IMG/VR virus record: IMGVR_UViG_2849231242_000001
DNA from: a virus
Reading direction: 5' to 3' (one strand)
Length of the DNA: 64,000 nucleotides
The first letter of the stretch is position 1; every line of letters begins with the position of its first letter. A program made the position numbers and the translations under genes. This document shows positions 40,842-63,900 of this stretch, in pieces. A model generated the notes under the pieces. The model was not told the DNA's origin and ran no database searches. It worked only from the letters and a program-made list of their open reading frames with translations.

Positions 40842-40849
40842 TATCCATA

Positions 40850-41263: not shown

Positions 41264-41265
41264 CG

Positions 41266-42067: not shown

Positions 42068-42070
42068 CGC

Positions 42071-42274
42071 ATGCCAGCAACAGCAAGCGTGCGCGGCAAA
42101 GTGCCGCGCACCAGGCCACGCACCCCGCCTGACAACCCCGCCCTTAATGCCCTCCTGGAACTGCGCGAGCTGGTCGCCAGTGAAGGCTACGCCATGACGG
42201 CGCTCACGCTGGCCGGCTACCGCCGCGACTTGCTCGCCACCTTCGACAACTACCTCAAAGACTGCACTTCATGA
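42071..42274 (+). CDS. Hypothetical protein (67 aa)
   Basis: ORF with coding GC3. Confidence 0.35.
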   Translation: MPATASVRGKVPRTRPRTPPDNPALNALLELRELVASEGYAMTALTLAGYRRDLLATFDNYLKDCTS

Positions 42275-42813: not shown

Positions 42814-43099
42814 AAAACCTTGGCTCACTCTTCCTTATTCGCAAGCCTGCTTTTGCGTTTAACCCCCTTCCCTGCTTGCGGGAAACCAGGGGAACACTTG
42901 CTCTATGGGGGCAAGTTCTTCCACTCCAGGTGGGCATGCCAACCTCGTCAAGGCCGGCTGGACGAATCATCCGAAGGCGCCCCAATTCCACAACATTGAC
43001 CCAAAATTGTAAGTTTTGCCTAATTTTCTGGAATTTCAGTTGCAATTAGGCACTGCGACGAATAATATGCTGAAACAATAGTTTTTTTGAAAGCGGAAA

Positions 43100-44185
43100 A
43101 TGCCCCCTGAGAATGTTTTGCGCCCCTTCCACGGGGTTCGCCTGAAGCTGGCCAAGGAATTCATTGGCTTCATCGGCCCAGACAAAAAATTCCGCGAGCT
43201 TGCAAAAGAAGCAATCGGCGATCTCATTCCGGTGGGCTCGACCAGTGCTCACAAAACATATCACGCCCTTGAGATTCGACGCATCCGTCAAAAAATCTTA
43301 CCGGGCCTGGTAGCAGAAGCGTTCCGAGAGCTGCCGCCAATTATCAACTTCCGCATGTCAAAGGGCGGGACGGGTAAAACGACAGTCAGCGCTAACGTAG
43401 CCACTTGCTTTGCCCAGTGCGGCTACAAGACTTTGGTGATCGACGGCGATCCCCAAGGGTCCTTGAGCATGCAACTAGGATTTGATATCAATCGTTCGCT
43501 GACCCATATTGGCACCCTGTTAGAGCGCCTATCTAAAGCTCAGCCGACACAAATCCATGACGCGGTCGTTCCTGTATATTCCGGCGGAATGCTTGACCTT
43601 ATCCCAGCTGACATTACGCTTGCAAATGATTCATGGATGATTTCGACCATGGGCCGCGAAGCACTTTTACAGCGACTAATGGAGCAAGAATCGGGATTCT
43701 TTAAACAGTATGAAGTGATCATTATTGACTCCGCCCCGGGCGCCTCCTTGCTGACGACTACCTTTATGGCAGCGAGCAATATTATTACGGCCGTGGTCAT
43801 TCCAGAAGCTCAGTCAGTGCTTGCGCTCGAAGTGCTTGAAGGCAACATTGAGGAAATTAATCAATCGATCCGCCGCACCGGGCCCAAACTGGGCCTTCAT
43901 ATTATTGCAAATCGATACCGCCAAACTTATAAATCACACAATGATGCACTTGAGAAATTGGGCTCAAAATATGCCCCCTATCTCAACGACACCATTATCC
44001 GCGACTTTGCTGGGTTTTTACGTGAAACGGATATGAGCGACTTCTCTAAGTCAGCCCCAGTCCTTGAAAAAGAACCAAACAGCGTAGGCGCCCGTGACAT
44101 TATCGATGTGACAAAAGCGCTGATCAAACTCTACAATGTAAAAATGAGTGCAGCCCCATCGGCGGAATTGGCAGCAGCAGCATGA
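43100..44185 (+). CDS. parA: Type Ia partition ATPase ParA (SopA-like, with N-terminal regulatory extension)
   Basis: LPPIINFRMSKGGTGKTTVSANVA...LVIDGDPQGSLSM closely parallels F SopA FPPVIGVAAHKGGVYKTSVSVHLA...LLVEGNDPQGTASM. Deviant Walker A. Confidence 0.85.
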   Translation: MPPENVLRPFHGVRLKLAKEFIGFIGPDKKFRELAKEAIGDLIPVGSTSAHKTYHALEIRRIRQKILPGLVAEAFRELPPIINFRMSKGGTGKTTVSANVATCFAQCGYKTLVIDGDPQGSLSMQLGFDINRSLTHIGTLLERLSKAQPTQIHDAVVPVYSGGMLDLIPADITLANDSWMISTMGREALLQRLMEQESGFFKQYEVIIIDSAPGASLLTTTFMAASNIITAVVIPEAQSVLALEVLEGNIEEINQSIRRTGPKLGLHIIANRYRQTYKSHNDALEKLGSKYAPYLNDTIIRDFAGFLRETDMSDFSKSAPVLEKEPNSVGARDIIDVTKALIKLYNVKMSAAPSAELAAAA

Positions 44186-45282
44186 CAGGCAACACCCCCC
44201 TGACTCCAGATACGGCGCAAGATGCTGAAAAACCACCTGCAAGCGCGCGCAGGCAGGTCAAGTTTTCCGGCCTGGTCAATGCCGGCGTGATATCCCCCAC
44301 GCCGGACATCAATAGCCCCCCTCATTTTGCTAACACATTATCTGGGGCGGCCGCGCCCCAACAGTTGCAGCCATTAGCGGATAGGCCTGTGGCTGCTTTA
44401 ACCATTGACGCTACCCAGAAGGCAGAATGGGAGCTTGTTGAAAATGAAAGCGTTCGCCTGATCGATGTTGACATGGTTGATGACAGCCCATTTCAACCAG
44501 AGGATGAAGCTCGCGATCGCTATAACAGCGAAGGAATTGATGACCTGGCGCATACGATGGCCAGTGCAGGTCAAAAAGAAAACATTATTGTTCGAGTGGT
44601 CAATGGTCGCTTTGAACTGATCGCGGGCCATCGTCGCATCCGTGCCGCTCGCTCACTTGGCTGGGCGAAAATTAAAGCACTCGTTGTCGGAATGAAAGAC
44701 GACCTTGAAGCCGAAAAATCGGTAATGGTCCACAACGAGGGTACTCAAGGCAACAGTGATTATGCCAAAGCTAAACTTTATCAGCGCGCAAAACAGAGAG
44801 GTTTCGCCAAGACCCAAGCCGATATCGCCCATATGTTTGCGACGAAACAGGCGTCAGTTTCTAAACGGCTTGCGATGCTTGAGTTACCAACTCCAATCCT
44901 AAATTTACTTGAATCGCAATTCGACCTTTTCGGCATGAATGCATCTGCTGCGATTCATGAATTGTTAGCTGAGCTCCCATCGGAGACGGATTTAATTACC
45001 AAGGCGGTTGCTCGCATCAAGCACGAAAACGCGAAAGAGAACTCAATTCGCGGGTGGGTTTTGCAGATGGTTCAGTCACGCACCAAACTACTATCTGGTA
45101 AGCCAGGCAAAACCAAGCCCAAGGTAATTACAGACCCAGCAGGGCGCCAGCTGTACACAGCAAAACTTGAAGGCCGTGTTATTACCTTCCGCGTCAGTGC
45201 GGCAGAGCTGGACCCGAGCGTCACCCTCGATGCCATGGTCGAGTATTTCCAGGCCGCAGCAAAAGGAAAAAGCAAAGAATGA
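44182..45282 (+). CDS. parB: Partition protein ParB (SopB-like)
   Basis: ParB N-terminal motif ELIAGHRRIRAARSLGW. Downstream HTH. ATGA overlap with parA. Confidence 0.8.
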   Translation: MTGNTPLTPDTAQDAEKPPASARRQVKFSGLVNAGVISPTPDINSPPHFANTLSGAAAPQQLQPLADRPVAALTIDATQKAEWELVENESVRLIDVDMVDDSPFQPEDEARDRYNSEGIDDLAHTMASAGQKENIIVRVVNGRFELIAGHRRIRAARSLGWAKIKALVVGMKDDLEAEKSVMVHNEGTQGNSDYAKAKLYQRAKQRGFAKTQADIAHMFATKQASVSKRLAMLELPTPILNLLESQFDLFGMNASAAIHELLAELPSETDLITKAVARIKHENAKENSIRGWVLQMVQSRTKLLSGKPGKTKPKVITDPAGRQLYTAKLEGRVITFRVSAAELDPSVTLDAMVEYFQAAAKGKSKE

Positions 45283-45318
45283 AATACTTAAAATATCCAT
45301 TAAAATCAATGACTTATA

Positions 45319-45339
45319 AATTATTCTACTGGAATAATT
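45319..45339. promoter_or_regulatory. Candidate parS centromere palindrome
   Basis: AATTATTC-tactg-GAATAATT, perfect 8-bp arms, 37 nt after the parB stop. Confidence 0.45.
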
Positions 45340-45392
45340 CTCAGATGATTGAGTTTAAGGAGGCGCGGCTATGAAAACCTAGCCCCCTAATG

Positions 45393-45430
45393 AAAAAACC
45401 CCAGCTTGCAGGCCGGGGTTTTTTGCTTTT
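45393..45430 (+). terminator. Rho-independent terminator after the parAB operon
   Basis: CCCCAGC-ttgca-GGCCGGGG hairpin (45399-45418) followed by TTTTTTGCTTTTT. Confidence 0.6.
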
Positions 45431-45492
45431 TGGACTACGAATTTCGTACTTCAAGGTGACAAGGTGATGCCTGAGAACTTCATCTTATCCCC

Positions 45493-46503
45493 ATGTGGTA
45501 CGACCGTCAAACACTTTGTGGCATCTATGCCCATGTGGAGATACTTGTGCGCGCTCAAACCCTAGATGATGTTATTAAACCATACTTGCACCTCCCAACA
45601 GCCATTCAAACGGCCCTGGTCCGTGTTGAAACGCACCCTACTTTTCGCTCGATCACCAAAAGCACCCTGCTGGTACTGAAGGCGCTTGTGTCCCGCGCAT
45701 CGGCAACCAACGGCACGCGCATCATCCATGCACGCCTCGATCGACTGGCCGAGGAAGCGAACGTCAGCTACAAAACGGTGCAACGTGCACTGCGCCAGTT
45801 TCATGAATTCAAATGGGCCAGCCCTGCGAGTGAAGGTCGATCCGAATGGGGCGTGTTCGAGGCAAAGCGCTATCGCCTCTCCCCCGACTTGTGCGCCCTG
45901 GTGCATCTGCCGACCAAGGAAAAGACCGCCTCCGAACTGGAGCAAGAGACAGAATTGTCCGACGGTGCTATATACGTTGATCTTAGTTTGAAAAAAGATC
46001 TCCGGAAGATTTCGATTGAGAATCGAAACGGCGAACCCCCAAAGCTACCCGCTGCCGTTGAACACGTCCCAGGCGAAACAGGCATCAGCCCAACCGGCAT
46101 TTGCAAGCTGCTGGGCATTGCCCGCAAAGCCGGCTACCAGCTCGAACACGTCATTCTGGTTGCCAAGCCCTACCTGGCCAAGATCGGTACAGCCAGCCCG
46201 GGTCGAGCATTCCGCTACCTGCAGGCGATGCTGACGAATCCGAAGAAGGTTGATTACGCGGGTCGCGCTGCCCAGCTGGAGCGTGGTGACGAACCAGATC
46301 CAGCGAAGGCAATGCTCGCCATCGCCAAGCAGTGCCGCCACAAGAAATTCGTCCACGCTACCAAACCCGGCCTGCTGGTCCGCTTCTTCGATGGGGTGGC
46401 TGAGGTATCATGCGCCGGCCAGGTTGAAACGCTCGCAGGGCGCCAGTTGGAGGTGCTGTACGCGGACGTGGCCAAGGGCAAGTTGACGGAGGTAATCGAA
46501 TAA
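45493..46503 (+). CDS. rep: Plasmid/phage replication initiator (Rep, winged-helix)
   Basis: 336 aa. TKSTLLVLKALVSRA...SYKTVQRALRQF wHTH. Follows parAB, as in plasmid replicons. Confidence 0.55.
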   Translation: MWYDRQTLCGIYAHVEILVRAQTLDDVIKPYLHLPTAIQTALVRVETHPTFRSITKSTLLVLKALVSRASATNGTRIIHARLDRLAEEANVSYKTVQRALRQFHEFKWASPASEGRSEWGVFEAKRYRLSPDLCALVHLPTKEKTASELEQETELSDGAIYVDLSLKKDLRKISIENRNGEPPKLPAAVEHVPGETGISPTGICKLLGIARKAGYQLEHVILVAKPYLAKIGTASPGRAFRYLQAMLTNPKKVDYAGRAAQLERGDEPDPAKAMLAIAKQCRHKKFVHATKPGLLVRFFDGVAEVSCAGQVETLAGRQLEVLYADVAKGKLTEVIE

Positions 46504-52594: not shown

Positions 52595-52760
52595 CGCAGT
52601 CTTTCAAAAAATAGAAAAAACAGGGACGCAGATCGTATTGGAATGAACACGCTCTACGTGTGAGGTGGTGCCTATCATACCGCCTAATCGAAGGCTGACG
52701 CCCATATTGGCCATGCGGGTCACTCGCCTGCAAACGCATCCCTGCGCGCATGCATGCGGG

Positions 52761-52800
52761 CTACAATTTTGTATTGCACATTACAATTTATTGTTACAAT
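52761..52800 (+). promoter_or_regulatory. Copy 2 of the duplicated ~40-bp promoter/operator element
   Basis: CTACAATTTTGTATTGCACATTACAATTTATTGTTACAAT, 12 nt upstream of the ATG at 52812. Confidence 0.5.
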
Positions 52801-52811
52801 TCTGGTTCACA

Positions 52812-53045
52812 ATGGATTGCACAATACAAATCATGATCCCCATCTACATCGGCCTGCTGCATGCGGGCCTGGAAGTTATGCGTTCGCAGCAGGCTGCGGC
52901 TATGCTGCAAGCCAAGTATCGCCGCCAGGCGCAAGAACTTGCAGAGATGATGGCGCGCGCCAGCGGCGATGTGATCGACGTCGACGCGCGCTTCATCGAT
53001 GAGCCGTTGGCATTGCCGCTGGACGACCAGCTGGGCCAGCCATGA
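52812..53045 (+). CDS. Hypothetical small protein (77 aa)
   Basis: MDCTIQIMIPIYIGLLHAGLEV.... First gene after repeat copy 2. ATGA overlap with the SprT-like gene. Confidence 0.4.
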   Translation: MDCTIQIMIPIYIGLLHAGLEVMRSQQAAAMLQAKYRRQAQELAEMMARASGDVIDVDARFIDEPLALPLDDQLGQP

Positions 53046-53773
53046 AGCAAACGGCCGTCGTCTATGGCGAATTACAGCTGGTGTACGACACGTTCAATGC
53101 AGCGTTGTTCGATTCAAGCCTGGCGGACTGCCTGCTGACGTTGCAGCGCAAAGACCGTACCATGGGCTATTTTTCGCCGGGGCGCTTCGGCAACCACCAG
53201 GGCGACAAGCTGCATGAAATTGCGCTGAACCCCGATTGCTTCGCCGTCGTGCCGCTGATCGAGATCATGGCCACCATTGCCCACGAAATGGCGCACCTGT
53301 GGCAGCACCAGCACGGCACGCCAGGACGCGGGCGCTACCACGACAAGGAGTGGGGCGACAAGATGGAGGCGATAGGCCTCATGCCGTCCTCGACGGGCCT
53401 GCCAGGGGGCAAGAAGACCGGCGACAAGGTGGCCGACTACCCGATCGCCGGCGGGCGCTTCCTGGCCGTGTGCGACCAGCTGCTCACCAATGATTTCAAA
53501 ATATCCTGGTACGACAGGTTCAGTACCGTGCGCCCGTACACCGCCGGCGCCGCCGCGCCCGGCCTCGGCCTGAACCTGCCGCCGGCGGCCGTGGCCGTGG
53601 CCGCTGAGAGCGGCGTGCAGATGGCGCCGCCGGCGCTGACCGCCTCGGGCGCCGTGGCCAACAAGAGCAACCGTTCGAAATACCGCTGCCAGTGCAACCA
53701 ACAGGTATGGGGCAAGCCAGGCCTGAAACTGCGCTGCGAGACGTGCGAGCACCTGTTCGAGGAACAGGCTTAG
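53042..53773 (+). CDS. SprT-like zinc metalloprotease with C-terminal zinc ribbon
   Basis: HEMAHLWQHQHG (HExxH). C-terminal YRCQCNQQVWGKPGLKLRCETCEH zinc-ribbon. Confidence 0.65.
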   Translation: MKQTAVVYGELQLVYDTFNAALFDSSLADCLLTLQRKDRTMGYFSPGRFGNHQGDKLHEIALNPDCFAVVPLIEIMATIAHEMAHLWQHQHGTPGRGRYHDKEWGDKMEAIGLMPSSTGLPGGKKTGDKVADYPIAGGRFLAVCDQLLTNDFKISWYDRFSTVRPYTAGAAAPGLGLNLPPAAVAVAAESGVQMAPPALTASGAVANKSNRSKYRCQCNQQVWGKPGLKLRCETCEHLFEEQA

Positions 53774-53877
53774 CAGGGGCAGGAGGGACCGTCAGGGGCG
53801 CGCCAAATAATCTAAGTTTGGCGCCAAGCGCTCCTATACTCGGCCGCGCACCACCTCCCTCCACTCTGAAAGCCATT

Positions 53878-54420
53878 ATGCAACGCACGTATCGCTCGAT
53901 GTCCTTGATGTTGGCGGCCGCCCTGGCCCTGACCGCCTGCGGCCACGACGCGCCGCCGGCGCAAACCACCCACCCCAACGCCGCGACAGCGCCGGCAGCG
54001 GCCCCCGTCATCGTCAATGCCGCGCCGGCCCAGTCGGGCATGACCGACTTGCTGACGGGCGGCGCCCTGGGCTACCTTCTGGGCAAGTCGAGCAGCGGTG
54101 GTGGCCATGCCGCGCCCGCGCCGTCCAGCGCCACCGTGCACAAGACCATCGTGCACCAAACCGTGGTGCAGGCGGCCCCGGTGGCGCGCCCGGCGGCGCC
54201 TGTTGCCGTGCTGCCGTCCGCCACGCCCAAGCCGGCCAGCACCACGGCCGTGACGTTGGCCAAGCCAGCCCCCAGCTACGCCCCGCGCAGCGCCTATGCC
54301 AGCACGACGGGCAGCAGCGCATACCGCGCCGCCGCCGCGCCGGCGCGCGCAGTAACGACCACGGCGCCTTCCTACGCCCGTAGCTACTCGCCGCCGGCCA
54401 CCTACAGCGGGCGCCGCTGA
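53878..54420 (+). CDS. Pro/Ala-rich lipoprotein
   Basis: Signal peptide plus lipobox MSLMLAAALALTAC. Low-complexity A/P/T-rich mature region. Confidence 0.55.
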   Translation: MQRTYRSMSLMLAAALALTACGHDAPPAQTTHPNAATAPAAAPVIVNAAPAQSGMTDLLTGGALGYLLGKSSSGGGHAAPAPSSATVHKTIVHQTVVQAAPVARPAAPVAVLPSATPKPASTTAVTLAKPAPSYAPRSAYASTTGSSAYRAAAAPARAVTTTAPSYARSYSPPATYSGRR

Positions 54421-54515
54421 TCGCGCGCACCATGCTGGGCCCGCCTGCCATCCATGTATTGCACCTCCAGGCGCCACGCAGTCGCCTGCCCCAACCTACC
54501 CACCAGGAGAACACC

Positions 54516-54701
54516 ATGATCGATGTCAAAAAGCTGATGAAAGAAGCCACCAAGGAAGTGGGCGAAGAACGCCGTACCAAGGCCAAGAATGCGCTGGTGG
54601 CGGCACTGCGCCGGCGCGAAAGCGCGCTGCAGGTCGTGCGTAACTGCGAGGCGGAAATTACGGATCTGCAAGCGAGCATCGAAGATGGCTCGTTTAACTG
54701 A
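54516..54701 (+). CDS. Hypothetical small helical protein (61 aa)
   Basis: AGGAGA SD. MIDVKKLMKEATKEVGEERR... Confidence 0.4.
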   Translation: MIDVKKLMKEATKEVGEERRTKAKNALVAALRRRESALQVVRNCEAEITDLQASIEDGSFN

Positions 54702-55368
54702 TCGCATCCCCCTGGTGCAGTCCGAGCCCGTTCCGGTCCAGTTGTGCGGGTTCTTCTCGAACACGTACCTCCTGGGCCGGCAGGGCTGGAAGCTGGCCCT
54801 GGACGAAAACTACATGGACCCCTATGCCTCGCGAGCGATGCTGCACCACGAACGCCTGGAGCTGACGTTGTTCGGCCAGCTGCGGGGCGGCACGCTCTTG
54901 CGCAGAACGCGCATGGACCGGGGCTATGGTGGCGGGCCAAACAGCGCGCATTTCGGCAACTACTCCAACTTTGAACGCCAGGAACGGGCCTGGTATGCCG
55001 CAGTGGATGAAGACAGCCCCCATATTGAGTTACAGCGCGCCGGTGGGCGTAGCACCCATGTGCTCCAGATGCCATCGTTGAAGGAAATGAGCTGGCGCGA
55101 TACGCAACCTGAATTATGCGAGGCGGCGACCAGCAGCGAGCTGTACCGTTTACCTCTCTTTGCCGAGCTCCACGCGGCGCGCCCGGACACGCAGGAATTG
55201 ATCGTGGAGCCGGCCGACGTGCAATGCCTGCTCGATCAGATCCTGGCGGCGCAGGGGCCGATGCGGCGCGAGATTCGCGCCCGCGACAAACGCCGCGATG
55301 CCGATAGCAGCGCAGCTGCTGCACCACGCCAGGTGCATGCCCAGATCGTCTCGCTACACGCGGCCTAA
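54685..55368 (+). CDS. Hypothetical protein (227 aa)
   Basis: Start at MARLTDRIPLVQSEP, inside ORF 54589..55368. Confidence 0.4.
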   Translation: MARLTDRIPLVQSEPVPVQLCGFFSNTYLLGRQGWKLALDENYMDPYASRAMLHHERLELTLFGQLRGGTLLRRTRMDRGYGGGPNSAHFGNYSNFERQERAWYAAVDEDSPHIELQRAGGRSTHVLQMPSLKEMSWRDTQPELCEAATSSELYRLPLFAELHAARPDTQELIVEPADVQCLLDQILAAQGPMRREIRARDKRRDADSSAAAAPRQVHAQIVSLHAA

Positions 55369-55599
55369 TCCACCTCCCTTCCTCACCCACCCTGCGTCGC
55401 CACGGCGCAGGGTTATTCCCAGAAATTGCCCTGCCATCGTGCGTTTTAGCATGCCGTTTTAAAACGTCTACATGCCCGCTTAAAAACGCTTTTTAAATGA
55501 ATTGTGCCAATTTGTTTAAATTTTCGTTGTCTTCGTGGATAGTTTGCCCCTATCATTACAACAGTTTGTTGTAACTCGCACTTTAACCACGGAGAAAGC

Positions 55600-55914
55600 A
55601 TGAACACAGTTGATATATCCACCCTGACGATTCCTGAATTAAAAGGCCTGCAATCGGACGTTGCCAAGCTCATCGAGAAACGCAATACCGATGCAATCAG
55701 CAACGCCCGCGCGCAAATCGCCGAGATTGCCAAGAATGCAGGCATCAACCTGAAAGACCTGGTGGCCAAGGGCGACAAGGGCGACGTAAAAAAAGCCCCG
55801 ATCAAATTCCGCGACCCGACTGACGCGAATAACACCTGGAGTGGACGCGGGCGCCTGCCGAACTGGGCGCTGAAAATGAAAGAGGCCGGCACGCTCGACA
55901 GCGCGCGCGTTTAA
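55600..55914 (+). CDS. H-NS/MvaT-family nucleoid-associated protein (xenogeneic silencer-like)
   Basis: C-terminal DNA-binding motif TWSGRGRLPNWAL. N-terminal coiled-coil. AT-rich promoter with TTTAAAA repeats upstream. Confidence 0.7.
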   Translation: MNTVDISTLTIPELKGLQSDVAKLIEKRNTDAISNARAQIAEIAKNAGINLKDLVAKGDKGDVKKAPIKFRDPTDANNTWSGRGRLPNWALKMKEAGTLDSARV

Positions 55915-55929
55915 TTCACACAGGACACC

Positions 55930-56490
55930 ATGACAATGATCCACCAGAAACAAATCACCCGTTATTCCATGCGTACCACCGATGGGCAGCATGCAACGAT
56001 CGCGCTCGATATCGGCGCCGATTCCGTGACCTTCATGGCCGATAGCTCCTTCGGCCCGTTTTGCCACCGCTGGAATGGGACGGGCGGCAACCCGATCCCC
56101 TTCTTGCGGGGCCTGCGCTTTGATGACGTCATGCAGCAGCTGCGTGGCGACGCCAGCCGCATCTTCGACCGCGAAGCGCAAGAAAAGGTGCTGCAAGCGC
56201 GTACTATCACCCTGCGCCGCCAGCGCAAGTTCGATGCCGAGCAGGCGCGCTGGTGCTTCGAAGAAGTCGGCCATGTGTGCGACGCGCGCAACCTCGACCA
56301 GTTCTGGGCCAACCTGTTTCATAGCGACCTGTCGCTGCACCTGTTCAATAATTGCATTGCGGGCTTTTCCGCTGAAACGCGCGCGCACCCCCATTGCGTC
56401 GATTTCTGGGACTTGATGTGGGTCCCGTTGATGGCCCAGCTGGCGCGCGACACGGCGCTGGCGACCGCACGCGGCGAGGTGGCGGCATGA
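55930..56490 (+). CDS. Hypothetical protein (186 aa), gene 1 of a five-gene coupled operon
   Basis: ORF. The downstream gene start overlaps it by ATGA. Confidence 0.45.
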   Translation: MTMIHQKQITRYSMRTTDGQHATIALDIGADSVTFMADSSFGPFCHRWNGTGGNPIPFLRGLRFDDVMQQLRGDASRIFDREAQEKVLQARTITLRRQRKFDAEQARWCFEEVGHVCDARNLDQFWANLFHSDLSLHLFNNCIAGFSAETRAHPHCVDFWDLMWVPLMAQLARDTALATARGEVAA

Positions 56491-56792
56491 CGAAGATCAC
56501 CAAAGAAGCGCAATTCATCGCTGATATGATCCGCTGCCGTGGCATGGAGTGGGTGCGCCTGGGCATGCAGGTGGAAGTGGCGGGCAGCATGGGCACCATC
56601 GTTGGCATGAATTCTAGCGCCAACCTGGACGTCGTATTTGCCAATCGCCTCAAGTACGGCAAGGGGCCGAGCAACTGCCATCCCTGGTGGGAAACGCGCT
56701 ATTTCGATCGGGACGGGACGGTGATCAAGGACTACCGCCGTCAGCCAACGGCGATATCCCTGGACCTGACGCCTGCGGCGGTGGTTGCATGA
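56487..56792 (+). CDS. Hypothetical protein (101 aa), gene 2 of the operon
   Basis: MTKITKEAQFIADMIRCRGMEWV.... ATGA overlaps at both ends. Confidence 0.45.
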   Translation: MTKITKEAQFIADMIRCRGMEWVRLGMQVEVAGSMGTIVGMNSSANLDVVFANRLKYGKGPSNCHPWWETRYFDRDGTVIKDYRRQPTAISLDLTPAAVVA

Positions 56793-57478
56793 GTTACCGC
56801 CTCACCGAAGCGCAGTTCTTCAAGGATATTGCTAAACATGACATGATCGTGATTCGTGACGAAGGGAACAACCGCCATATCCGCTTCAAGCAACCTGGCA
56901 CCAACAACGCCCATTTCGACCTGATCACCTGGCCGGGCCACCTCTGCTATACCGGAGACATGGGCACCTATGTGTTTCAACGCGTGCCTGATATGTTTGC
57001 GTTCTTTCGCACCTCCAGCGTCGAAGGTGGCGATGCGGATACGCTGCATATCAACGTGGAATACTGGACGGAGAAACTGATTGCTGTCGATGGCAACCGT
57101 GACGGTGGCAAGGTCAAGGCATTCGTCGAGGACAAGTTCAAACGCGTCATCAATGAATACCGCGTGCAGTGGATGCGCGATGCCAAGGCAACGGGCGCGC
57201 TCGACAAGGACAGCCGGCGCCAGTTGTGGGAAGCGGTAGACGACGAGGTGCTGTACCGGCTGGGGGACGGCGCAGATCGCGCAGAACTCGCCGCCTATGA
57301 CTTCTGTTATAACCCGCACCCGAAAAAGGAATATAGCTGGCAGTTCGAGGAACTGTTCGAGCACGACTTCACCGAATTTACGACCAGCATCCGCTGGTGT
57401 TGCTATGCACTGGCCTGGGGCATCAAGAAATACGACGCCTCCAAAGTCACCGCCCTTCCCGAAGGAGCCGCAGCATGA
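56789..57478 (+). CDS. Hypothetical protein (229 aa), gene 3 of the operon
   Basis: MSYRLTEAQFFKDIAKHDMIVIRDEG.... ATGA overlap with the methyltransferase gene. Confidence 0.45.
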   Translation: MSYRLTEAQFFKDIAKHDMIVIRDEGNNRHIRFKQPGTNNAHFDLITWPGHLCYTGDMGTYVFQRVPDMFAFFRTSSVEGGDADTLHINVEYWTEKLIAVDGNRDGGKVKAFVEDKFKRVINEYRVQWMRDAKATGALDKDSRRQLWEAVDDEVLYRLGDGADRAELAAYDFCYNPHPKKEYSWQFEELFEHDFTEFTTSIRWCCYALAWGIKKYDASKVTALPEGAAA

Positions 57479-59496
57479 AGCGCGACAACTTCACCATGTC
57501 GCTCGACTTGGGCCATGAACTGATCGTGGACAACTTTGCCGGCGGCGGCGGCGCCAGCACGGCGCTGGCCATCGCGCTGGGCCGCGAACCCGACATCGCC
57601 ATCAATCATGATGGCGAGGCGCTGTGCATGCACGCAGCCAACCACCCGACAACGGCGCACTACACCGAAGACGTCTTCATGGTCCACCCGGGCTTCGTGA
57701 CGAAACAACGGCCCATTGGCGCTGCGTGGTTTTCACCCACCTGCACCCACTTTTCCAAGGCGAAGGGCGGTAACCTGCTAGACCAAAAAGTGCGCGGCCT
57801 GGCTTGGGTGACGGTCAAGTGGGGCGCCATGCAAATGCCGCGCCTCATGTTCCTGGAGAACGTGGAGGAATTCTTGGGATGGGGGCCGCTCGATGCCGCT
57901 GGGCGGCCGATCAAAGCCCTCAAGGGGCGCACGTTTGAAGCCTTTGTGCAGGTGCTCACCACCGGCATCGAGCGTGGCCACCCTGATCTCGAAGAGATCT
58001 ACGCCACGCTGGGCGCTGACTTCCCCGTCGAGCGGCTGCATACAGGCTTGGGCTACAAAGTGGAATGGCGCGTGCTCAAAGCGTGTGACTTTGGCGCCCC
58101 TACCATTCGCAAACGCCTGTTCATGGTCATGCGCCGTGACGGCTTGCCGATTGTGTGGCCCGAGCCGACGCATGGCCCACGCGGTTCTGCAGCCGTGAAG
58201 GCTGGCCGACTACTGCCATACCTGAGCGCAGCCAGCTGCATTGACTGGTCGATCCCATGTCCGTCCATTTTTGGCCGAAAAAGGGAATTGAAGCCACCCA
58301 CCAAGAGCCGCATCGGAAAAGGCTTCGAGCGCTATACGAAGGACGCGGCCAATCCCTACATTGTTGAATGCGCCCATGGAGAAACATCACCTTCCGGCGC
58401 CAAACGTTGGGGCTCAGGCGTACGAGATATTACCGAACCGCTGCAAACAGTGCTGGCAGGCGGGAATGGCGCAGCGCTGGTATCGCCTGTCCTTGTGCCG
58501 CTGACGCACCAAGGGAGCGACCGTATCAGCGGGCCACTTGAGCCCATGCCTACGGTCACATGCGCCAACCGCGGCGAATTGGCACTTGCGGCCGTATCGA
58601 TGGTGCAAATGGGGTATGGCGAAGCGCCGGGCCAGGCCCCGCGCGCACTGGATATCGAAAATCCGCTCGGCACGATCGTTGCAGGTGGCGGCAAGCATGC
58701 TGTCGTGGCCGCTTCGCTCGTACAATATTATTCGAACGGCAGCCAGAACCGCAGCCTGGAAGACCCTATGCCGGCCATCGTGACAAAGGACCGCATCGGC
58801 ATCACATGCGCCTACCTGGCCAAGCATTACAAAGGTGTGGTTGGCGCCAGTGTCGAGCAGCCGATGCCGACCGTGACCACGTCGGATCATACGTCGCTGG
58901 TAACCGCGCATCTGGTGGGCATCGACAACCAGAGGAACGGCGACCGCGATACCTGGTCTGTCGATAATCCCTTGGGTACCATCGTGACTGAAAATCGCCA
59001 TGCTCTGGTCACGAGCAATTTAATTCGGCTGCATGGAACCAGCACGGCCGCTGATGTTGCCGATCCGCTGGGCACCGTCACGGCCGGCGGCCAACACCAT
59101 GCCGAGGTGCGCACGACATTGGCCGCGCCCATCGAACGCAGCGCCTATGAGGCAAGGCGGCAGGAGATCCGTGATTTCCTTTGGGAATTCTGCCCGAGCT
59201 TGAAAGGGGAGGAATTTCCAGAGTTGGTCATAATCCATGGCGTCATGATGGAAGTGGTCGATATTGGCTTGCGCATGCTCAAGCCGCGCGAGCTGGCCAA
59301 CGCCCAAGGCTTCCCAGCGGATTACATCCTCGATCCTCTCTATACCCAAGTCAACAAACGTGGCAAGACCGTGACGAAGGCGCTTTCCGGCAGTGCGCAG
59401 GTGCGCATGATCGGTAATAGCGTGTCGCCACCACCTGCAATTGCTGTTATTCGGGCTAATTGCAAACATGAAGCAATGATGGCGAGGGCAGCATGA
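57475..59496 (+). CDS. C5-cytosine DNA methyltransferase, orphan and probably multispecific (673 aa, with five tandem TRD-like repeats)
   Basis: Motif I DNFAGGGGAS, PC motif SPTCTHFSKAKGG, ENV motif LENVEEF, motif IX-like QGFPADY, motif X IGNSVSPP. Between them are five PMPTVT/PLGTIV-headed repeats of ~30-45 aa each. Confidence 0.85.
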   Translation: MKRDNFTMSLDLGHELIVDNFAGGGGASTALAIALGREPDIAINHDGEALCMHAANHPTTAHYTEDVFMVHPGFVTKQRPIGAAWFSPTCTHFSKAKGGNLLDQKVRGLAWVTVKWGAMQMPRLMFLENVEEFLGWGPLDAAGRPIKALKGRTFEAFVQVLTTGIERGHPDLEEIYATLGADFPVERLHTGLGYKVEWRVLKACDFGAPTIRKRLFMVMRRDGLPIVWPEPTHGPRGSAAVKAGRLLPYLSAASCIDWSIPCPSIFGRKRELKPPTKSRIGKGFERYTKDAANPYIVECAHGETSPSGAKRWGSGVRDITEPLQTVLAGGNGAALVSPVLVPLTHQGSDRISGPLEPMPTVTCANRGELALAAVSMVQMGYGEAPGQAPRALDIENPLGTIVAGGGKHAVVAASLVQYYSNGSQNRSLEDPMPAIVTKDRIGITCAYLAKHYKGVVGASVEQPMPTVTTSDHTSLVTAHLVGIDNQRNGDRDTWSVDNPLGTIVTENRHALVTSNLIRLHGTSTAADVADPLGTVTAGGQHHAEVRTTLAAPIERSAYEARRQEIRDFLWEFCPSLKGEEFPELVIIHGVMMEVVDIGLRMLKPRELANAQGFPADYILDPLYTQVNKRGKTVTKALSGSAQVRMIGNSVSPPPAIAVIRANCKHEAMMARAA

Positions 59497-59582
59497 ACGT
59501 CACCATCGCTCGTGCGGCCATGGTCGTTATCTGTATTTTCGTGGCGGCCACACTGGCGGGCGCGGCCTACACATTGGCCTGA
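59493..59582 (+). CDS. Possible 29-aa hydrophobic micropeptide ATGA-coupled to the methyltransferase stop
   Basis: MNVTIARAAMVVICIFVAATLAGAAYTLA. A single TM helix. Very short, so speculative. Confidence 0.25.
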   Translation: MNVTIARAAMVVICIFVAATLAGAAYTLA

Positions 59583-59687
59583 ATAGCGAATACGACAATG
59601 CGAATTGAATGCAGGCCTGTCGTGCGCGATGCTGGGCGACGCGATACCACCGCTTCCCAGCAGAATTTATCTTATGGAGTAACATTT

Positions 59688-60593
59688 ATGATCGACATCG
59701 ATAACATTGAAGTACTGGCGCGCTCAGCAACGCCGGGGCCGTGGTTCTTCTCTCCCATGACCGAGACGGTCGACCCGGAGATCAGTGCGGCCAATGGCAC
59801 CCGCGTTGCCACCTTGGCTGCTGCCGACATTACCAAAGCTAACTGCGCGTACATCGCTGCGGCTAACCCTGCGGCCGTGCTGGCGTTAATCAAGGAGCTG
59901 AAGAGCAACACTCGTATGTTTATGGCGGCCTGCGAAGAGCTGGGGGCAGTAAACGAGAAACTGGGCCTGGACCCGAATGACGGTGGCGCCGAGCCGATAC
60001 TGAATGCCATCGAGGAACTACAAGCTGCCGCCCGCGCAAGCGCCACTTTGCTGCCGCAAGAACCGGAAAGCATGGATACCGAACAGTCACGCGAATATCT
60101 GGTGCAGTTCATGGAGAAGCATTTCTCGGATACAACTTACCATCGCTATATTCGCGCCGAAGGTGGCAGCAACGGCCTTGCTGGCGACTTTGCCTGGCAG
60201 TTGGCGCGGGCCTTGCGTATGCGTTCATGCCAAGAGCAGGACGTGCCCGCTTCCGTTGAGCATCTGTCGATAGTGCTGGAACAGGCTGCGAATCTCGCAA
60301 TCAAATTTACAGCGGCCCCGCGCGATTACCTCGGGCCGGTGCCTCACGCGATGAAGATGCAAGCCGAACTGGGTGAAAAGATTGCCGCAGCCATCCGCGC
60401 CCTGCACATAACGGCCGCTCCTATCGCCCCAGCAGTGCAGGGCTATGCCAAAGAAATGACGGATGAGCGCATTTATGACATCGCCGCATCTTGCGAAATA
60501 GGAATAGGCCACGACGACCACGAAACTAGCCTGCGCGTTGAGTTTGCCCGTGCCATCGTCGCCACTATCGCTGCCAGTAAGGCAGCTTCATGA
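59688..60593 (+). CDS. Hypothetical protein (301 aa)
   Basis: GGAG SD. MIDIDNIEVLARSATPGPWFF... Confidence 0.45.
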   Translation: MIDIDNIEVLARSATPGPWFFSPMTETVDPEISAANGTRVATLAAADITKANCAYIAAANPAAVLALIKELKSNTRMFMAACEELGAVNEKLGLDPNDGGAEPILNAIEELQAAARASATLLPQEPESMDTEQSREYLVQFMEKHFSDTTYHRYIRAEGGSNGLAGDFAWQLARALRMRSCQEQDVPASVEHLSIVLEQAANLAIKFTAAPRDYLGPVPHAMKMQAELGEKIAAAIRALHITAAPIAPAVQGYAKEMTDERIYDIAASCEIGIGHDDHETSLRVEFARAIVATIAASKAAS

Positions 60594-60856
60594 ACGCCCA
60601 GCAGCGCCGCAAATATCGGCGCTCTAAACCAAGGCCAACAAGCTGCTTCTTGCAAGGCTATAGCGGCGGCACCAGCTATCCAGACCTGATGTGCCAGGAT
60701 GGCTACATGCGCGACATGGATGATGATGGCTACGATCCATCGACTTGGGCTCCACCATGCAAGAACTGCAATACAGTCGAGTATGCTGAATGGCTCAAGG
60801 AACTGGATGATGACGAAGTCGATTTCTCAGCGTCCGTGGATGAAAGTAAGAAATAG
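60590..60856 (+). CDS. Hypothetical acidic protein with CxxC pair (88 aa)
   Basis: ATGA overlap. PPCKNCNTVEY. Acidic C-terminus. Confidence 0.4.
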   Translation: MNAQQRRKYRRSKPRPTSCFLQGYSGGTSYPDLMCQDGYMRDMDDDGYDPSTWAPPCKNCNTVEYAEWLKELDDDEVDFSASVDESKK

Positions 60857-60905: not shown

Positions 60906-63900
60906 TTAATCCCTGACACTGGCCAGCTCGGCGCGCACTGTTTGTTTCAGCGCGGCTGGCGCGGTCTTCTGCGTGCGGGCCAGCGCATCCTGGCGCATCG
61001 CGCGCACCCGGCGGATGATGCCCGGCAAACTGACACGAATCGGTGCCTCTGGATTTTTCTCGTTCCAGTCGTCACGCATGGCGCGCGCCTCCTGCACCAT
61101 TCCCGGCTTGCCGTTGGCCAGGCCCTGCGCCCAGTGCTCGGCGATTTCGCTGGATCGCATCCGGTTCTGGCTGATCATATCCAGGGCCTGGCCCTTCTGC
61201 CCTTGAATGTCGGCCGTGCTGTTGGGCTGGAAGCCGATCATCTTCATCACCGCTTCCGTCGGCGATGTCTCGTTGACCGTATAGCCACGGGTATCGCGGT
61301 AGGCGCCCGTGACGAGCATATCGCCGCCCTTGGCCAGATTGCGCACGGCCGCCGGCGACATTTCCAGTGCGCCACCCAGCAGATCACCGCCGAGAGCCTT
61401 GCCGGTACCCGTAAAGACGCGCTTGACGAAGTCGCCGGCAGGGCCGGCCAGTTCGCCCAGGTCGCGGGTGTACGAATCCTTCTTCGTCAGCAGGCCAGTG
61501 CCGGGAATCAGGTTGCCCATGCCGAAGCGGCCGGCGACGTCGATGGGCATGCCCGGCATGGCCGACAAACCCTTCAGGGCAAAATCGGCGCCGCCCTGGC
61601 CCAGCACGTCGGTCAGGAACTCTTGCTTCTTGCGCTTGGTCGAGAAGTTATAGCCGAGCCGCTGCAAGATGCCATCGAGCGCATCCTCCAGGTCCTGCTC
61701 GAACGGCAGGCCATCGGCGCCGCCCATCAGGAACAGCACGGCGACCATGTACAGTGCCGCGCGGCGGCCCGCTGCACGTTCTTTCGAGCCAGGTTCACCC
61801 GCGAAGGCCATGCGCGACAGCAGCTCCAGGTAGGCGATGGAATACTGCTTGAACGTCATCAGCAGCCCGCCAATGGTGCTACGCGCCCATTTTGGCTTGT
61901 TGCCGGCGTTGTACATGCCCTGCGTTTGCGTGACCGCCTGCTGCGCAAAGCGCTCCGGATTGGGCATCCCCTCTTCCACGGCCGTGCGATAGGCCGCGAT
62001 GAAGGTAATGCGGCGGTTGGCCAGCTCGGCCATGGCAAACAGCTTACCCCAGCCCAGCGACACCTTGGACAAAGCGTTGTTGATGTGCGCACGCGTATTT
62101 CCGGCGCGCGTGCCGTCACCGGAGCGCAAGCCGCCTTTGCCCTGCGCCTGCGCTTGCAGGTAATGGACCTCCTGCGGCGCCACGATCCCCTCTTCCGCCG
62201 CCCACTTCATTGCGGCGTCGAGGCGGGCGTCGCCCGTCGTATCCTTGGCCGCGTCACGAATGGCGGCAGTGAGGCGCTTGCCAGCCTTGCCAAGGCCACC
62301 CCACTGCGACAGGTACGGCATCGTCATGGCGAAGGGCTGGGTCAAGTTGACCATGGCCGATGCGACGGAGCCGCCCAGGAATTGAGCGAACATCAGGCCG
62401 CCCAGCTTGCTGCCGCCGCCTTCCGGATTGCGGATGTGCTCGCGTAGCTGCATGGCCGCATCGGTCAATTCGCCTTGCTGCTTCGGAATTTCCGTGACCG
62501 CCTCATCGATCTTGCCCAGGTGGGCATTGCCGGCCGTCAGGCGGGCGTTGCTGTAGATGAAGCCGGCCAGTACGCGGCCCGCGTCTTCGGAGAAGCCAGC
62601 GATGCCCTTGCGCTGAATCAGGCGCTTCATGGAACTGCGGTTGTTCTTCGCCAGTTTCAGGTAGGTCTGGTACACCTCGTTGTGCTTCGGGTCATCCTGG
62701 TCATCGAGCCCGACCATGGAGCCGAACAGCTCGATCGTCTCTGGTGATACGCCGGCGAACAGCTTGTAAGCGTCTTCCGAGATCGTGCCTTGCGAGACGT
62801 CGGCATTTGGGTGCTCGGCGGCCATGTCGCGCGCCATTTTCGACGCCTCGTACTGCGTCTCGAACATGCCGAAATACAGCTGCTCGCCATCCTTCTGGAC
62901 GTAGACCGTATGCTTGCCGAAACGCGACAGGGGCGCATAGCCCCGGTCCATCAGGTCTTCTCCCTTGTCGGCCAGGTCCATGATCTGCTTGGCCGTGTCC
63001 AGGTGGATATCGAGCTTTTCGGGATGCAGCTTGCCCAAGGCGATGAAATGATCGCGCAGCAGTTCGCCGGCGCTGGCCAGATCCGGCGCCGCAACAGCTC
63101 GCTCAAGCATGCCGCTGGCATCTTTGCCGCCCAGCTTCACCATTTCGGAAATGGTGAGATTGGTCAGGCTCTTGTCCAGCGCGTCACGGAACTCGCGGTA
63201 CAGGCCGATCTGCTCATCGTTCAGGCGGAACATGCTGCGCAGCTCGGCATCACTCCATACAAGACCGGCCTTGAGCTGGGTATCGGCAAACTTGCTGTTG
63301 ATGATGCGCTCGTAGAAGTCGAGCGGGTTGCGCATCCAGGCCTGATTCTGGCCGTCATCGATGACGCCCTTGCTCAGCAGGACCTGGGCCTTTTGTTCCG
63401 TCGTCATCTGCTCGAACTTCGCTTCCAGCACGGCAATCCGAACCGGCTTGTCGTGTTCGTCGCGTGCCCAGGCCAAGGTGCCCTCGAAAATTGGCGCGCC
63501 AATGGCCTTGGTGTCGGCCGCTGTCAGCGCTTTCTTGCGGTTCCTGCCGATCACGTCCGCCATGTCCTCCAACTTGGGCAGCAGACGTGGCGCCAGGTCG
63601 GCCGACACGACCGCGTAGCGCGACACGTCGCCGATGAAGCTTTGCACGGCCTCATAGACCCGGGCGAACGCGGGTTCGCGCTTGGCCAGGTTGTCCATGG
63701 TGCCGATGGTCTTGTGCCACCAGCTGATCTTGCCCGACTGGTTGAATAGGTCGCCTACGCGGTAGTTCGCGGGCAGGCGGACCGCATTGATGCTGTTGGT
63801 CGCATTTTTCAAGGCCTCGCCGATGCCGGCGCGGCTGAAAGCGATATTAGCGTTGCCGCGATCTTGGTTGCCCTTGTTGACCTTCGAAGCGCCGCGCGTG

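What the first reader, a model, noticed from the sequence alone, without database searches (positions are those of the whole stretch)
55930..59582. Five-gene translationally coupled operon ending in a multispecific-looking C5-methyltransferase (five tandem TRD-like repeats) plus a 29-aa micropeptide
Three unknown proteins (186, 101 and 229 aa) are chained by ATGA overlaps to a 673-aa C5-MTase. The methyltransferase's variable region holds five tandem repeats, each headed by PMPTVT/PLGTIV-like motifs. This resembles the stacked target-recognition domains of multispecific Bacillus phage methyltransferases, which counter several host restriction systems at once. A 29-codon hydrophobic ORF is ATGA-coupled to the methyltransferase stop. 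The tight coupling suggests the unknown proteins act with the methylase, for example as regulators, cofactors or a novel modification or anti-defence module.
Basis: partly seen in the sequence, partly recalled or inferred. Interest (0 to 1): 0.7.

Follow-up and report, generated by a model that had tools for sequence, protein, structure and literature searches.

The report
Phage cytosine methylase with repeat array
This is an ordinary solitary phage DNA cytosine methyltransferase from a very large family whose DNA-recognition region is an array of seven or eight short repeats; its overlapping neighbour genes are interchangeable passengers, not partners.

Summary
The ORFs (186, 101, 229, 673 and 29 aa) and all four ATGA overlaps are real. 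The 673-aa protein is an intact C5-cytosine DNA methyltransferase. Between motifs VIII and IX it carries seven clear ~33-aa units headed by P-x-x-T-[IV]-x, plus a degenerate eighth, not five.

This is typical of a very large family, mostly from phages and prophages. It has at least 2358 clusters at 50% identity and 2-12 units per protein. Close relatives differ by whole-unit gains and losses that keep unit order. The layout parallels the stacked recognition domains of the multispecific Bacillus phage enzymes, but no sequence similarity was detected. AlphaFold2 could not fold the array. Three C-terminal unit types are shared by every family member examined, so multispecificity is plausible (about 0.4) and unproven.

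The idea of a functional five-gene module is not supported. In 160 homologous loci, p186, p101 and p29 never accompany the methylase, and p229 does so in 4. Relatives 72-87% identical keep the same ATGA junctions with entirely different neighbours. The co-directional cluster extends beyond the five genes.

The 29-codon ORF is conserved in two related contigs, with TTG starts and mostly third-position changes. It is probably a real small membrane peptide, with no shown link to methylation.

The parts
55600..55914 (+). H-NS-like small DNA-binding protein (104 aa).
   Evidence: PF00816 H-NS C-terminal domain, E 9e-9. Conserved in L083 and L252. A promoter-like site lies at 55527-55556, but the number of such sites is no more than shuffles give.
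55930..56490 (+). p186, a phage protein of unknown function. Not a conserved partner of the methylase.
   Evidence: phrog_13202, E 1e-20. The 184-aa homologue in L083/L252 carries PF26211 Phage_phiTE_072. It is absent from all 160 methylase-homologue loci. No match in phage records or viral contigs.
56487..56792 (+). p101, a phage protein of unknown function. ATGA overlap with p186.
   Evidence: phrog_6245, E 1e-14. Homologues occur in Escherichia, Enterobacter, Bacillus and Brevibacillus phages; in several of the Bacillus records the match lies beside a dUTPase gene. Absent from all 160 methylase loci.
56789..57478 (+). p229, a widespread phage early-region protein of unknown function. Loosely and non-obligately co-located with this methylase family.
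   Evidence: phrog_4657, E 3.5e-52. 870 homologues, all 'hypothetical' with no Pfam domain, one fused to a KTSC domain. The methylase family lies within 5 kb in 15 of 75 p229 loci. p229 is present in 4 of 160 methylase loci. Its neighbours are highly variable.
57475..59496 (+). Solitary C5-cytosine DNA methyltransferase, 673 aa. Motif I DNFAGGGGAS (aa 19-28), motif IV SPTCTHFS (Cys90), motif VI ENV (aa 128-130), motif VIII TIRKR (aa 210-214), motif IX RMLKPRELANAQGFP (aa 600-614), motif X GNSVSPP (aa 647-653).
   Evidence: PF00145 and phrog_116. The motifs are invariant in 71 homologues. The AF2 core is confident at aa 12-296 and 553-673. The model of relative P0121 matches DNMT1, M.HhaI and M.HaeIII.
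58426..59142 (+). Array of seven ~33-aa TRD-like units inside the methylase (aa 318-556), each headed by P-[LM]-x-[TA]-[IV]-x.
   Evidence: Motif count of 7 against 0.005 in shuffles. HMM envelopes. The whole array has pLDDT below 50. Unit number is 2-10 in 160 homologous loci and up to 12 in library representatives. Close relatives differ by whole-unit gains and losses.
59188..59271 (+). Degenerate eighth unit (FCPSLKGEEFPELVIIHG..., from aa 572) that runs into motif IX.
   Evidence: It aligns column for column with the EPLHT(I/V)TTK(E/D)RFG unit of the 3-unit relatives. Position.
59493..59582 (+). p29, a 29-codon hydrophobic ORF (MNVTIARAAMVVICIFVAATLAGAAYTLA) that starts at the ATG embedded in the methylase's ...GCATGA end. 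GAGG lies 5 nt upstream.
   Evidence: The ORF is kept in L252 (29 codons) and L083 (40 codons), both with TTG starts. My count on the sequences gives 8 of 12 window-versus-L252 differences at codon position 3 (binomial p 0.019). Absent from the other 160 loci.
59598..60856 (+). Downstream continuation of the cluster: a 331-aa protein with weak Ead/Ea22-like similarity, and an ATGA-coupled 88-aa protein.
   Evidence: PF13935, E 5e-4, below the Pfam cut-off. ORFs. Different genes occupy this position in L083 and L252.

Best explanation
The 673-aa gene is a solitary (no restriction partner) C5-cytosine DNA methyltransferase. It is carried as a mobile cassette in the early, co-directional gene cluster of a temperate phage or prophage of an Oxalobacteraceae-like host.

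Shown:
- It has every catalytic motif of the C5-MTase superfamily.
- Its variable region, between motifs VIII and IX, is an ancient array of seven ~33-aa units plus a degenerate eighth. Each unit is headed by a Pro-x-x-Thr-[Ile/Val] signature.
- This array defines a very large family, mostly from phages and prophages, in which unit number varies from 2 to 12.
- Close relatives differ by whole-unit gains and losses that keep unit order.
- The last three unit types are shared by every family member examined.

Inferred:
- The enzyme methylates phage DNA during lytic growth so that progeny escape host restriction.
- The conserved C-terminal units form the scaffold of the small DNA-binding domain. 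The variable N-terminal units act as add-on recognition modules that widen the set of methylated sequences, as in the multispecific Bacillus phage enzymes. I give the multi-target part about 0.4.

The three upstream proteins and the downstream genes are unrelated neighbours. The ATGA overlaps at both ends of the methylase gene are conserved recombination and translation junctions. Different genes plug into them in different phages.

p29 is probably a genuine small membrane peptide of this phage lineage. No link to methylation has been shown.
For: Catalytic identity:
- Family matches, invariant motifs.
- Confident AF2 core and Foldseek matches of the relative P0121 to DNMT1, M.HhaI and M.HaeIII.
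- Motif X keeps Asn648.

Solitary status: no nuclease or defence-system match in the four flanking genes scanned, and no nuclease domain in any neighbour scanned with Pfam.

Repeat array:
- Statistics; position between motifs VIII and IX.
- Family-wide unit counts.
- 135 of the 149 newly returned representatives carrying units also carry motif X, so the units occur in C5-MTases.
- Unit gains and losses among close relatives give the patterns x4567, 34567, 234567, 124567, 1234567 and 123x4567.

Parallel with known multispecific enzymes: units are headed by SPTITT, SHTLSA, ATTLTS, SPTLTT and PAFTVNT at 30-47 aa spacing in SPR, rho11s and H2. The biology of those enzymes is described in PMC12707154 and PMC8936443.

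Cassette behaviour:
- Different neighbours flank homologues 72-87% identical.
- The junctions GCATGA(A/G)GCG at the start and GAGGGCNGCATGA at the end are conserved while partner ORFs differ.
- 94 of 156 homologues end in ATGA or GTGA, with downstream ORFs of 4-897 aa.

Phage setting:
- PHROG hits for all genes and 344 phage records carrying the family.
- An integrase lies at 34297-35364.
- Nearest named homologues are from Massilia, Collimonas, Duganella and Janthinobacterium.
Against: - No methylation data exist for any family member that I could find.
- AlphaFold2 gives no usable structure for the array, either in the query or in a 3-unit relative.
- The units show no significant similarity to any solved structure or to SPR-type recognition domains. 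The best hhalign hit is E 0.008 at 4.9% probability.
- Even the shortest members keep three units of the same types across Vibrio, Bacillus and Burkholderiales phages. This fits a structural scaffold as well as recognition modules.
- p229 does sit within 5 kb of this family in 20% of its own loci, so a loose functional link cannot be excluded.
- Timing of expression and the anti-restriction role are inferred from other phage methylases, not tested.
Confidence: 0.65

Rival explanations
1. The enzyme has one target, or a short relaxed one. The repeats are a purely structural array of hairpin-like repeats. They build an enlarged small domain or a DNA-wrapping surface, and unit number tunes affinity or processivity rather than adding targets.
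For: Three unit types are conserved in all members across phyla. Unit order is always collinear, with no shuffling seen. Units are 31-40 aa long, and three of them together approach the size of a canonical single recognition domain (my knowledge of M.HhaI, residues about 194-275). No unit resembles a characterised recognition domain.
Against: Interior units are gained and lost singly among close relatives without loss of the reading frame or catalytic motifs. The same layout in SPR, rho11s and H2 is experimentally multispecific (PMC8936443). The low AF2 confidence does not suggest a rigid solenoid.
Confidence: 0.3
2. The first reader's module: p186, p101 and p229 work with the methylase as regulators, cofactors or a further modification or anti-defence step. 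Translational coupling enforces their stoichiometry.
For: There are four ATGA overlaps. The whole cluster is conserved in L083 and L252. p229 lies next to this methylase family in some other phages.
Against: p186 and p101 occur in 0 of 160 homologous loci and p229 in 4 of 160. Methylases 72-87% identical keep the same junctions with unrelated genes: a Dam-like methylase, a DGR reverse transcriptase, and small ORFs. p229's own neighbours are highly variable, and 80% of its loci lack the methylase. In L083 and L252 the methylase is 96-97% identical but p229 only 75-77%. No domain suggests an enzymatic step.
Confidence: 0.05
3. The enzyme installs something other than a methyl group, as the phage C5-carboxymethyltransferase CmoX does, or it feeds a hypermodification pathway encoded by the unknown neighbours.
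For: CmoX (PDB 8yf3) is among the few sequence-level PDB hits, E 0.0015, and among the fold matches. Phage C5-MTase homologues are known to do this (PMC12783734).
Against: CmoX replaces the motif X Asn (Asn304 of M.HhaI) with Arg (PMC12783734). Here Asn648 is invariant in 71 homologues. No CmoA-like, ligase, TET or glycosyltransferase domain occurs in the flanking genes. The neighbours are not conserved.
Confidence: 0.03

Closest known systems
Multispecific C5-MTases of temperate Bacillus phages (M.SPRI, M.Phi3TI, M.Rho11sI, M.H2I; also M.BssHII and M.phiBssHII)
   Same: Solitary phage-borne C5-MTases. Their variable region between motifs VIII and IX holds several consecutive short units, each with a Pro/Ser-x-Thr-[Ile/Leu/Val]-Thr head. 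Spacing is 30-47 aa in SPR, rho11s and H2 and 31-40 aa here. A conserved last unit sits next to motif IX. Relatives differ in unit content.
   Different: No detectable sequence similarity in the variable region. There are 7-8 units here and up to 12 in the family, against 3-5 recognition domains in the characterised enzymes (my knowledge). The family spans Proteobacteria, Actinobacteria and Firmicutes phages. No specificity data exist.
Monospecific bacterial C5-MTases (M.HhaI, M.HaeIII; PF00145)
   Same: The same ten-motif catalytic architecture and fold. A Thr-Leu-type signature precedes motif IX (my recollection of the M.HhaI sequence...GIAITLSAYGGG...).
   Different: Those enzymes have a single recognition domain of about 80-100 aa with one such signature. 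Here the signature is repeated 7-8 times. The NCBIfam dcm model scores 51.4, below its cut-off of 100.65, so this is a divergent branch.
Solitary anti-restriction methylases of mobile elements with relaxed specificity (for example M.EcoGII, phage P1 Dmt)
   Same: No partner nuclease, carried by a temperate phage, and a presumed role in protecting exported DNA (PMC12707154).
   Different: Those are adenine methylases of other classes. Relaxed specificity there does not come from repeated recognition units.

Membership tests
C5-cytosine DNA methyltransferase superfamily (PF00145) | Motif I F-x-G-x-G (AdoMet binding) | tested here: met
   DNFAGGGGAS at aa 19-28. D19 to S28 are invariant in 71 homologues.
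C5-cytosine DNA methyltransferase superfamily (PF00145) | Motif IV Pro-Cys with the catalytic cysteine | tested here: met
   SPTCTHFS at aa 87-94. Here it reads Pro-Thr-Cys, and C90 is invariant.
C5-cytosine DNA methyltransferase superfamily (PF00145) | Motifs VI (ENV), VIII (R-x-R), IX and X (GN[SA]V) | tested here: met
   E128, N129, V130, R212, R214, R600, M601, L602 and G647, N648, S649, V650 are all invariant.
C5-cytosine DNA methyltransferase superfamily (PF00145) | Score above the curated family threshold | tested here: met
   Pfam gives 60.8 bits against a cut-off of 22. The narrower NCBIfam dcm model TIGR00675 gives 51.4 against 100.65, which is not met.
C5-cytosine DNA methyltransferase superfamily (PF00145) | Two-lobed MTase fold | tested here: met
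   The query core has pLDDT mostly 80-97. The model of the 3-unit relative P0121 matches DNMT1, M.HhaI, M.HaeIII and 3g7u at E about 1e-11 to 1e-13. The query model itself was not searched.
Multispecific phage C5-MTases (SPR type) | Several contiguous short recognition units in the variable region between motifs VIII and IX | tested here: met
   Seven units plus one degenerate unit span aa 318-600, between motif VIII (aa 210-216) and motif IX (aa 596-614). This shows architecture only.
Multispecific phage C5-MTases (SPR type) | Each unit carries a Thr-[Leu/Ile/Val] signature | tested here: met
   Six of seven units have T-[IV], one has A-I, and the degenerate unit has S-L. The same heads are seen in SPR, rho11s and H2.
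Multispecific phage C5-MTases (SPR type) | Sequence homology of the recognition units to the SPR, Phi3T, Rho11s or H2 domains | tested here: not met
   BLASTP aligns only the catalytic core. The unit HMM finds nothing in SPR, rho11s or H2. The best hhalign hit is E 0.008 at 4.9% probability.
Multispecific phage C5-MTases (SPR type) | Methylation of two or more unrelated target sequences by one polypeptide, with one unit per target | not testable with these tools
   This needs methylome data and unit deletions. No published data were found for the family.
Multispecific phage C5-MTases (SPR type) | Units can be removed or added without loss of the enzyme | tested here: inconclusive
   Natural relatives differ by single whole units while all motifs stay intact. 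Their activity is unknown.
Type II restriction-modification system | A cognate restriction endonuclease encoded next to the methylase | tested here: not met
   No nuclease or defence-system match in the four flanking genes scanned against PADLOC. No nuclease domain in any neighbour scanned with Pfam or NCBIfam. All neighbours scanned except p29 match phage families.
CmoX-type C5-carboxymethyltransferase | Arg in place of the motif X Asn, plus an adjacent CmoA Cx-SAM synthase | tested here: not met
   Asn648 is invariant. No methyltransferase-fold or CmoA hit in p186, p101 or p229. The criterion is taken from PMC12783734.
Conserved functional operon (methylase plus accessory proteins) | Synteny of the accessory genes with methylase homologues across lineages | tested here: not met
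   p186, p101 and p29 occur in 0 of 160 loci and p229 in 4 of 160. Neighbours differ at 72-87% methylase identity. The cluster is conserved only in the near relatives L083 and L252.

The most novel reading that the evidence does not exclude
The whole family would consist of hyper-multispecific cytosine methylases. The family has at least 2358 clusters at 50% identity and occurs in phages and prophages of Proteobacteria, Actinobacteria and Firmicutes. A conserved three-unit scaffold would carry up to nine interchangeable ~33-aa mini recognition modules, each adding one target. Phages would then edit their anti-restriction spectrum by gaining and losing single units. This would generalise a mechanism known only from a handful of Bacillus phage enzymes. 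It would also give a natural library of minimal DNA-recognition modules.
Probability: 0.35. Interest if true: 0.65.

Novelty: new variant of a known kind. Interest (0 to 1): 0.4.

Why it matters
If the units are independent recognition modules, this abundant family would show how temperate phages counter many restriction systems with one gene. It would also offer compact, natural, swappable modules for engineering cytosine methylase specificity. 5mC motifs remain the least characterised part of bacterial and phage methylomes (PMC11954522).

The negative result also matters. ATGA overlaps at both ends of this gene are conserved junctions reused with unrelated genes, so tight translational coupling in phage early regions is not evidence of shared function.

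Tried and rejected
1. Structure of the repeat array. AlphaFold2 on the query with 71 homologues, and on a minimal 3-unit relative with 91 homologues, both gave pLDDT below 50 over the units. The test of solenoid against independent domains is therefore inconclusive.
2. Similarity of the units to solved structures. phmmer with the array found nothing. The unit profile hit only influenza matrix protein by chance, E 0.07.
3. Homology to Bacillus multispecific recognition domains by BLASTP, HMM and hhalign. Nothing was significant.
4. Single-linkage clustering of units merged everything into one cluster. I replaced it by assigning each unit to the query's seven unit types.
5. Literature on characterised members of this family: five full-text searches found none. 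The primary Trautner-laboratory paper I tried (PMC450048) and the Murphy 2013 review are not held.
6. CmoX-like carboxymethylation was rejected on the motif X Asn.
7. A DGR next to the homologue in L085 might have been diversifying the methylase. It is not: its variable repeat lies in a different, upstream gene.
8. PADLOC and NCBIfam scans of the unknown proteins gave no hits.
9. p186 has no relatives in phage records or viral contigs by tblastn.

Full report
**What is in the sequence**

The five ORFs exist as described, all on the + strand:
- p186: 55930-56490
- p101: 56487-56792
- p229: 56789-57478
- methyltransferase, 673 aa: 57475-59496
- p29: 59493-59582

All four junctions read ATGA, so each stop codon overlaps the next start.

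The five genes are not a discrete unit:
- An H-NS-like gene (55600-55914, PF00816) ends 15 nt before p186.
- A 331-aa gene starts 15 nt after p29 and is itself ATGA-coupled to an 88-aa gene.
- Co-directional ORFs run from about 52665 to 60856.
- The consensus scan found no convincing terminator inside this stretch. Its few promoter-like sites are no more numerous than in shuffled sequence.

Every gene scanned except p29 matches a PHROG family of phage proteins. A tyrosine integrase lies at 34297-35364. The nearest named homologues come from Massilia, Collimonas, Duganella, Janthinobacterium and Herbaspirillum. The setting is therefore the early or accessory region of a temperate phage or prophage of an Oxalobacteraceae-like host.

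**The methyltransferase**

The protein passes the Pfam threshold for PF00145 (60.8 bits against 22). It matches phrog_116 'DNA methyltransferase' at E 3.4e-88.

All catalytic motifs are present and invariant in an alignment of 71 homologues:
- motif I: DNFAGGGGAS
- motif IV: SPTCTHFS, with Cys90
- motif VI: ENV
- motif VIII: TIRKR
- motif IX: RMLKPRELANAQGFP
- motif X: GNSVSPP

AlphaFold2 models the catalytic core confidently at aa 12-296 and 553-673. The model of a short relative matches DNMT1, M.HhaI, M.HaeIII and the prophage CP-933R enzyme 3g7u.

No nuclease or defence-system domain was found in the flanking genes scanned, so the enzyme is solitary. It is not a CmoX-type carboxymethyltransferase. 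CmoX replaces the motif X asparagine with arginine and needs an adjacent CmoA (PMC12783734). Here Asn648 is invariant and no such neighbour exists.

**The repeats**

P[LM][PGQ][TA][IV][TVL] gives 7 hits, against a mean of 0.005 and a maximum of 1 in 20000 shuffles. A unit HMM delimits seven units of about 31-32 aa between aa 318 and 556. Alignment with short relatives reveals a degenerate eighth unit (FCPSLKGEEFPELVIIHG...). It corresponds to their EPLHT(I/V)TTK(E/D)RFG unit and runs straight into motif IX.

The units are 7-40% identical to one another. There is no repeat at the DNA level, so the array is old rather than a recent expansion. It fills the variable region between motifs VIII and IX, which is where C5-MTases carry their target-recognition domain.

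**The array is a family trait**

It appears in 344 phage records from Gordonia, Mycobacterium, Pseudomonas, Arthrobacter, Vibrio and other hosts.
- In 160 homologous loci from viral contigs and genomes, unit number ranges from 2 to 10, most often 6 or 7.
- A profile built from the window's seven units finds 2358 clusters at 50% identity in a library of 1.84 billion representatives, with up to 12 matched stretches per protein.
- 135 of the 149 newly returned representatives also carry motif X, so the units occur essentially only in C5-MTases.

I assigned each unit of 120 close homologues to the query's seven unit types. The resulting architectures include x4567, 34567, 234567, 124567, 1234567, 12x4567 and 123x4567. 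Whole units come and go, including interior ones, while order and catalytic motifs are kept.

The shortest members have three units. These are a 473-aa Vibrio phage K404 protein, a 462-aa ORF in a Bacillus record labelled phi105, and the 494-aa close relative P0070. The K404 and phi105 proteins carry the query's U6, U7 and U8 unit types, and P0070 carries an unassigned unit followed by U6 and U7. These types are thus conserved across phyla.

**Comparison with known multispecific enzymes**

I retrieved the real M.SPRI, M.Rho11sI and M.H2I sequences. Their variable regions show the same layout. Units headed by SPTITT, SHTLSA, ATTLTS, SPTLTT and PAFTVNT sit 30-47 aa apart, and the last unit (EPAFTVNT...) is conserved in all three and abuts motif IX. 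Those enzymes array several recognition domains in one polypeptide and protect the phage against several restriction systems (PMC12707154, PMC8936443).

The resemblance is architectural only:
- BLASTP aligns only the catalytic core.
- The unit HMM finds nothing in the Bacillus enzymes.
- hhalign places the unit profile on the final EPAFTVNT unit at E 0.008, but with 4.9% probability.
- No solved structure matches the units.

AlphaFold2 gives pLDDT of 20-40 over the array in the query. In the minimal 3-unit relative, the stretch from the end of the first unit through the second unit and into the third is below 50.

I read the conserved C-terminal units as the scaffold of the small domain and the variable N-terminal units as candidate add-on recognition modules. 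I give multispecificity about 0.4 and a purely structural repeat about 0.3.

**The upstream genes are not partners**

- Among the 80 best viral loci and 80 best genome loci encoding homologues of the methylase, p186, p101 and p29 are never present. p229 is present in 4.
- Contigs encoding methylases 72-87% identical carry quite different genes at the same positions. These include a Dam-like methylase and a PAPS-reductase-like gene (L084), and a DGR reverse transcriptase and an integrase (L085). They also include small unrelated ORFs with YbcO and HTH_36 genes (L248, L249), and a PAPS-reductase-like gene with a terminase (L251).
- From the p229 side, this methylase family lies within 5 kb in 15 of 75 loci, in varying positions. 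p229's immediate neighbours fall into dozens of unrelated clusters. The commonest upstream neighbour forms one 13-member cluster of ~239-aa proteins; separately, one p229 homologue is fused to a KTSC domain.
- The whole cluster from SprT-like to methylase is kept only in two near relatives, L083 and L252. There the methylase is 96-97% identical, but p229 only 75-77% and p101 84-91%.

**The ATGA junctions travel with the methylase gene**

The start context (...GCATGA(A/G)GCG...) and the end context (...GAGGGCNGCATGA, encoding ...ARAA stop) are conserved. Unrelated upstream genes end on the first. Unrelated downstream ORFs of 29, 60, 83, 98 and 145 aa begin on the second. Of 156 homologues, 94 end in ATGA or GTGA, with downstream ORFs of 4 to 897 aa. 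Tight coupling here reflects how this phage group packs and recombines early genes. It is not evidence of shared function.

**The micropeptide**

p29 starts at that conserved junction ATG, with GAGG 5 nt upstream. It encodes one hydrophobic helix. It is absent from the 160 wider loci.

It is kept in both near relatives. L252 has a 29-codon ORF with the same stop, and L083 has a 40-codon ORF. Both have TTG in place of ATG. By my count on the sequences, 8 of 12 nucleotide differences between the window and L252 fall at the third codon position (binomial p 0.019), and the three amino-acid changes are conservative. This suggests a real small membrane peptide, at roughly 0.55. The sample is tiny and the two relatives are not independent. 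Nothing links it to the methylase beyond the generic junction.

**Verdict**

The methylase interpretation is reasonable but unproven.

The gene is a typical member of a huge, experimentally uncharacterised family of solitary C5-MTases, mostly from phages and prophages. The family's variable-length array of TRD-like units is its one interesting feature, and it is directly testable by methylome mapping of natural unit variants.

Noticed in passing
window 55600-55914 (+): A phage-encoded H-NS-like protein (104 aa, H-NS C-terminal DNA-binding domain) sits immediately upstream of the cluster. It is conserved in L083 and L252. It could be a xenogeneic-silencing mimic or antagonist.
   Followed up: partly
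window 57475 and 59493; L084, L085, L248, L249: Both ends of the methylase gene are conserved ATGA junctions, and the 3' end has a built-in GAGGG Shine-Dalgarno-like sequence. Completely different genes start or stop on them in different phages. This suggests module exchange exactly at coupled gene boundaries.
   Followed up: yes
L083 and L252 compared with window 53042-59496: In the two near-relative contigs the methylase is 96-97% identical to the window's. p229 is only 75-77%, p101 84-91% and the H-NS-like protein 88-90%. This points either to much stronger constraint on the methylase or to a recent exchange of the cassette.
   Followed up: partly
proteins P0255, P0263, P0289, P0336 and others: Many library representatives of 245-450 aa start with Met and consist only of 5-9 units plus motifs IX-X, with no N-terminal catalytic half. 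They could be gene fragments. They could also be the C-terminal subunits of split C5-MTases.
   Followed up: no
L084 6810-7775; L251 3340-4509; Escherichia phages Eeyore and Flotzy: A PAPS-reductase-like gene recurs next to homologues of this methylase in several unrelated phages. It is not present in the window.
   Followed up: no
L085 1-2210: A diversity-generating retroelement (bAvd and reverse transcriptase) lies directly upstream of a 78%-identical methylase. The template repeat is at 761-867. The variable repeat, at 95-201 and 90% identical, lies in a different gene at the contig end, so the retroelement does not target the methylase.
   Followed up: yes
window 60906-63812 (-): A 968-aa ORF converges on the cluster and has no Pfam or PADLOC match. 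At the corresponding place in L083, the called gene is 4980 aa and runs off the locus. This suggests a giant phage protein, which here may be truncated, frameshifted or mis-started.
   Followed up: no
window 53042-53773 (+): A SprT-like metalloprotease-domain protein (243 aa) has a Cys-rich C-terminal tail. It is conserved at the head of the same cluster in L083 and L252.
   Followed up: no
window 34297-35364 (-) and 40000-46000: A tyrosine integrase, followed by a stretch of lower G+C (0.50-0.54 against about 0.60). This may mark the boundary of the integrated element. No tRNA gene was found anywhere in the window.
   Followed up: partly
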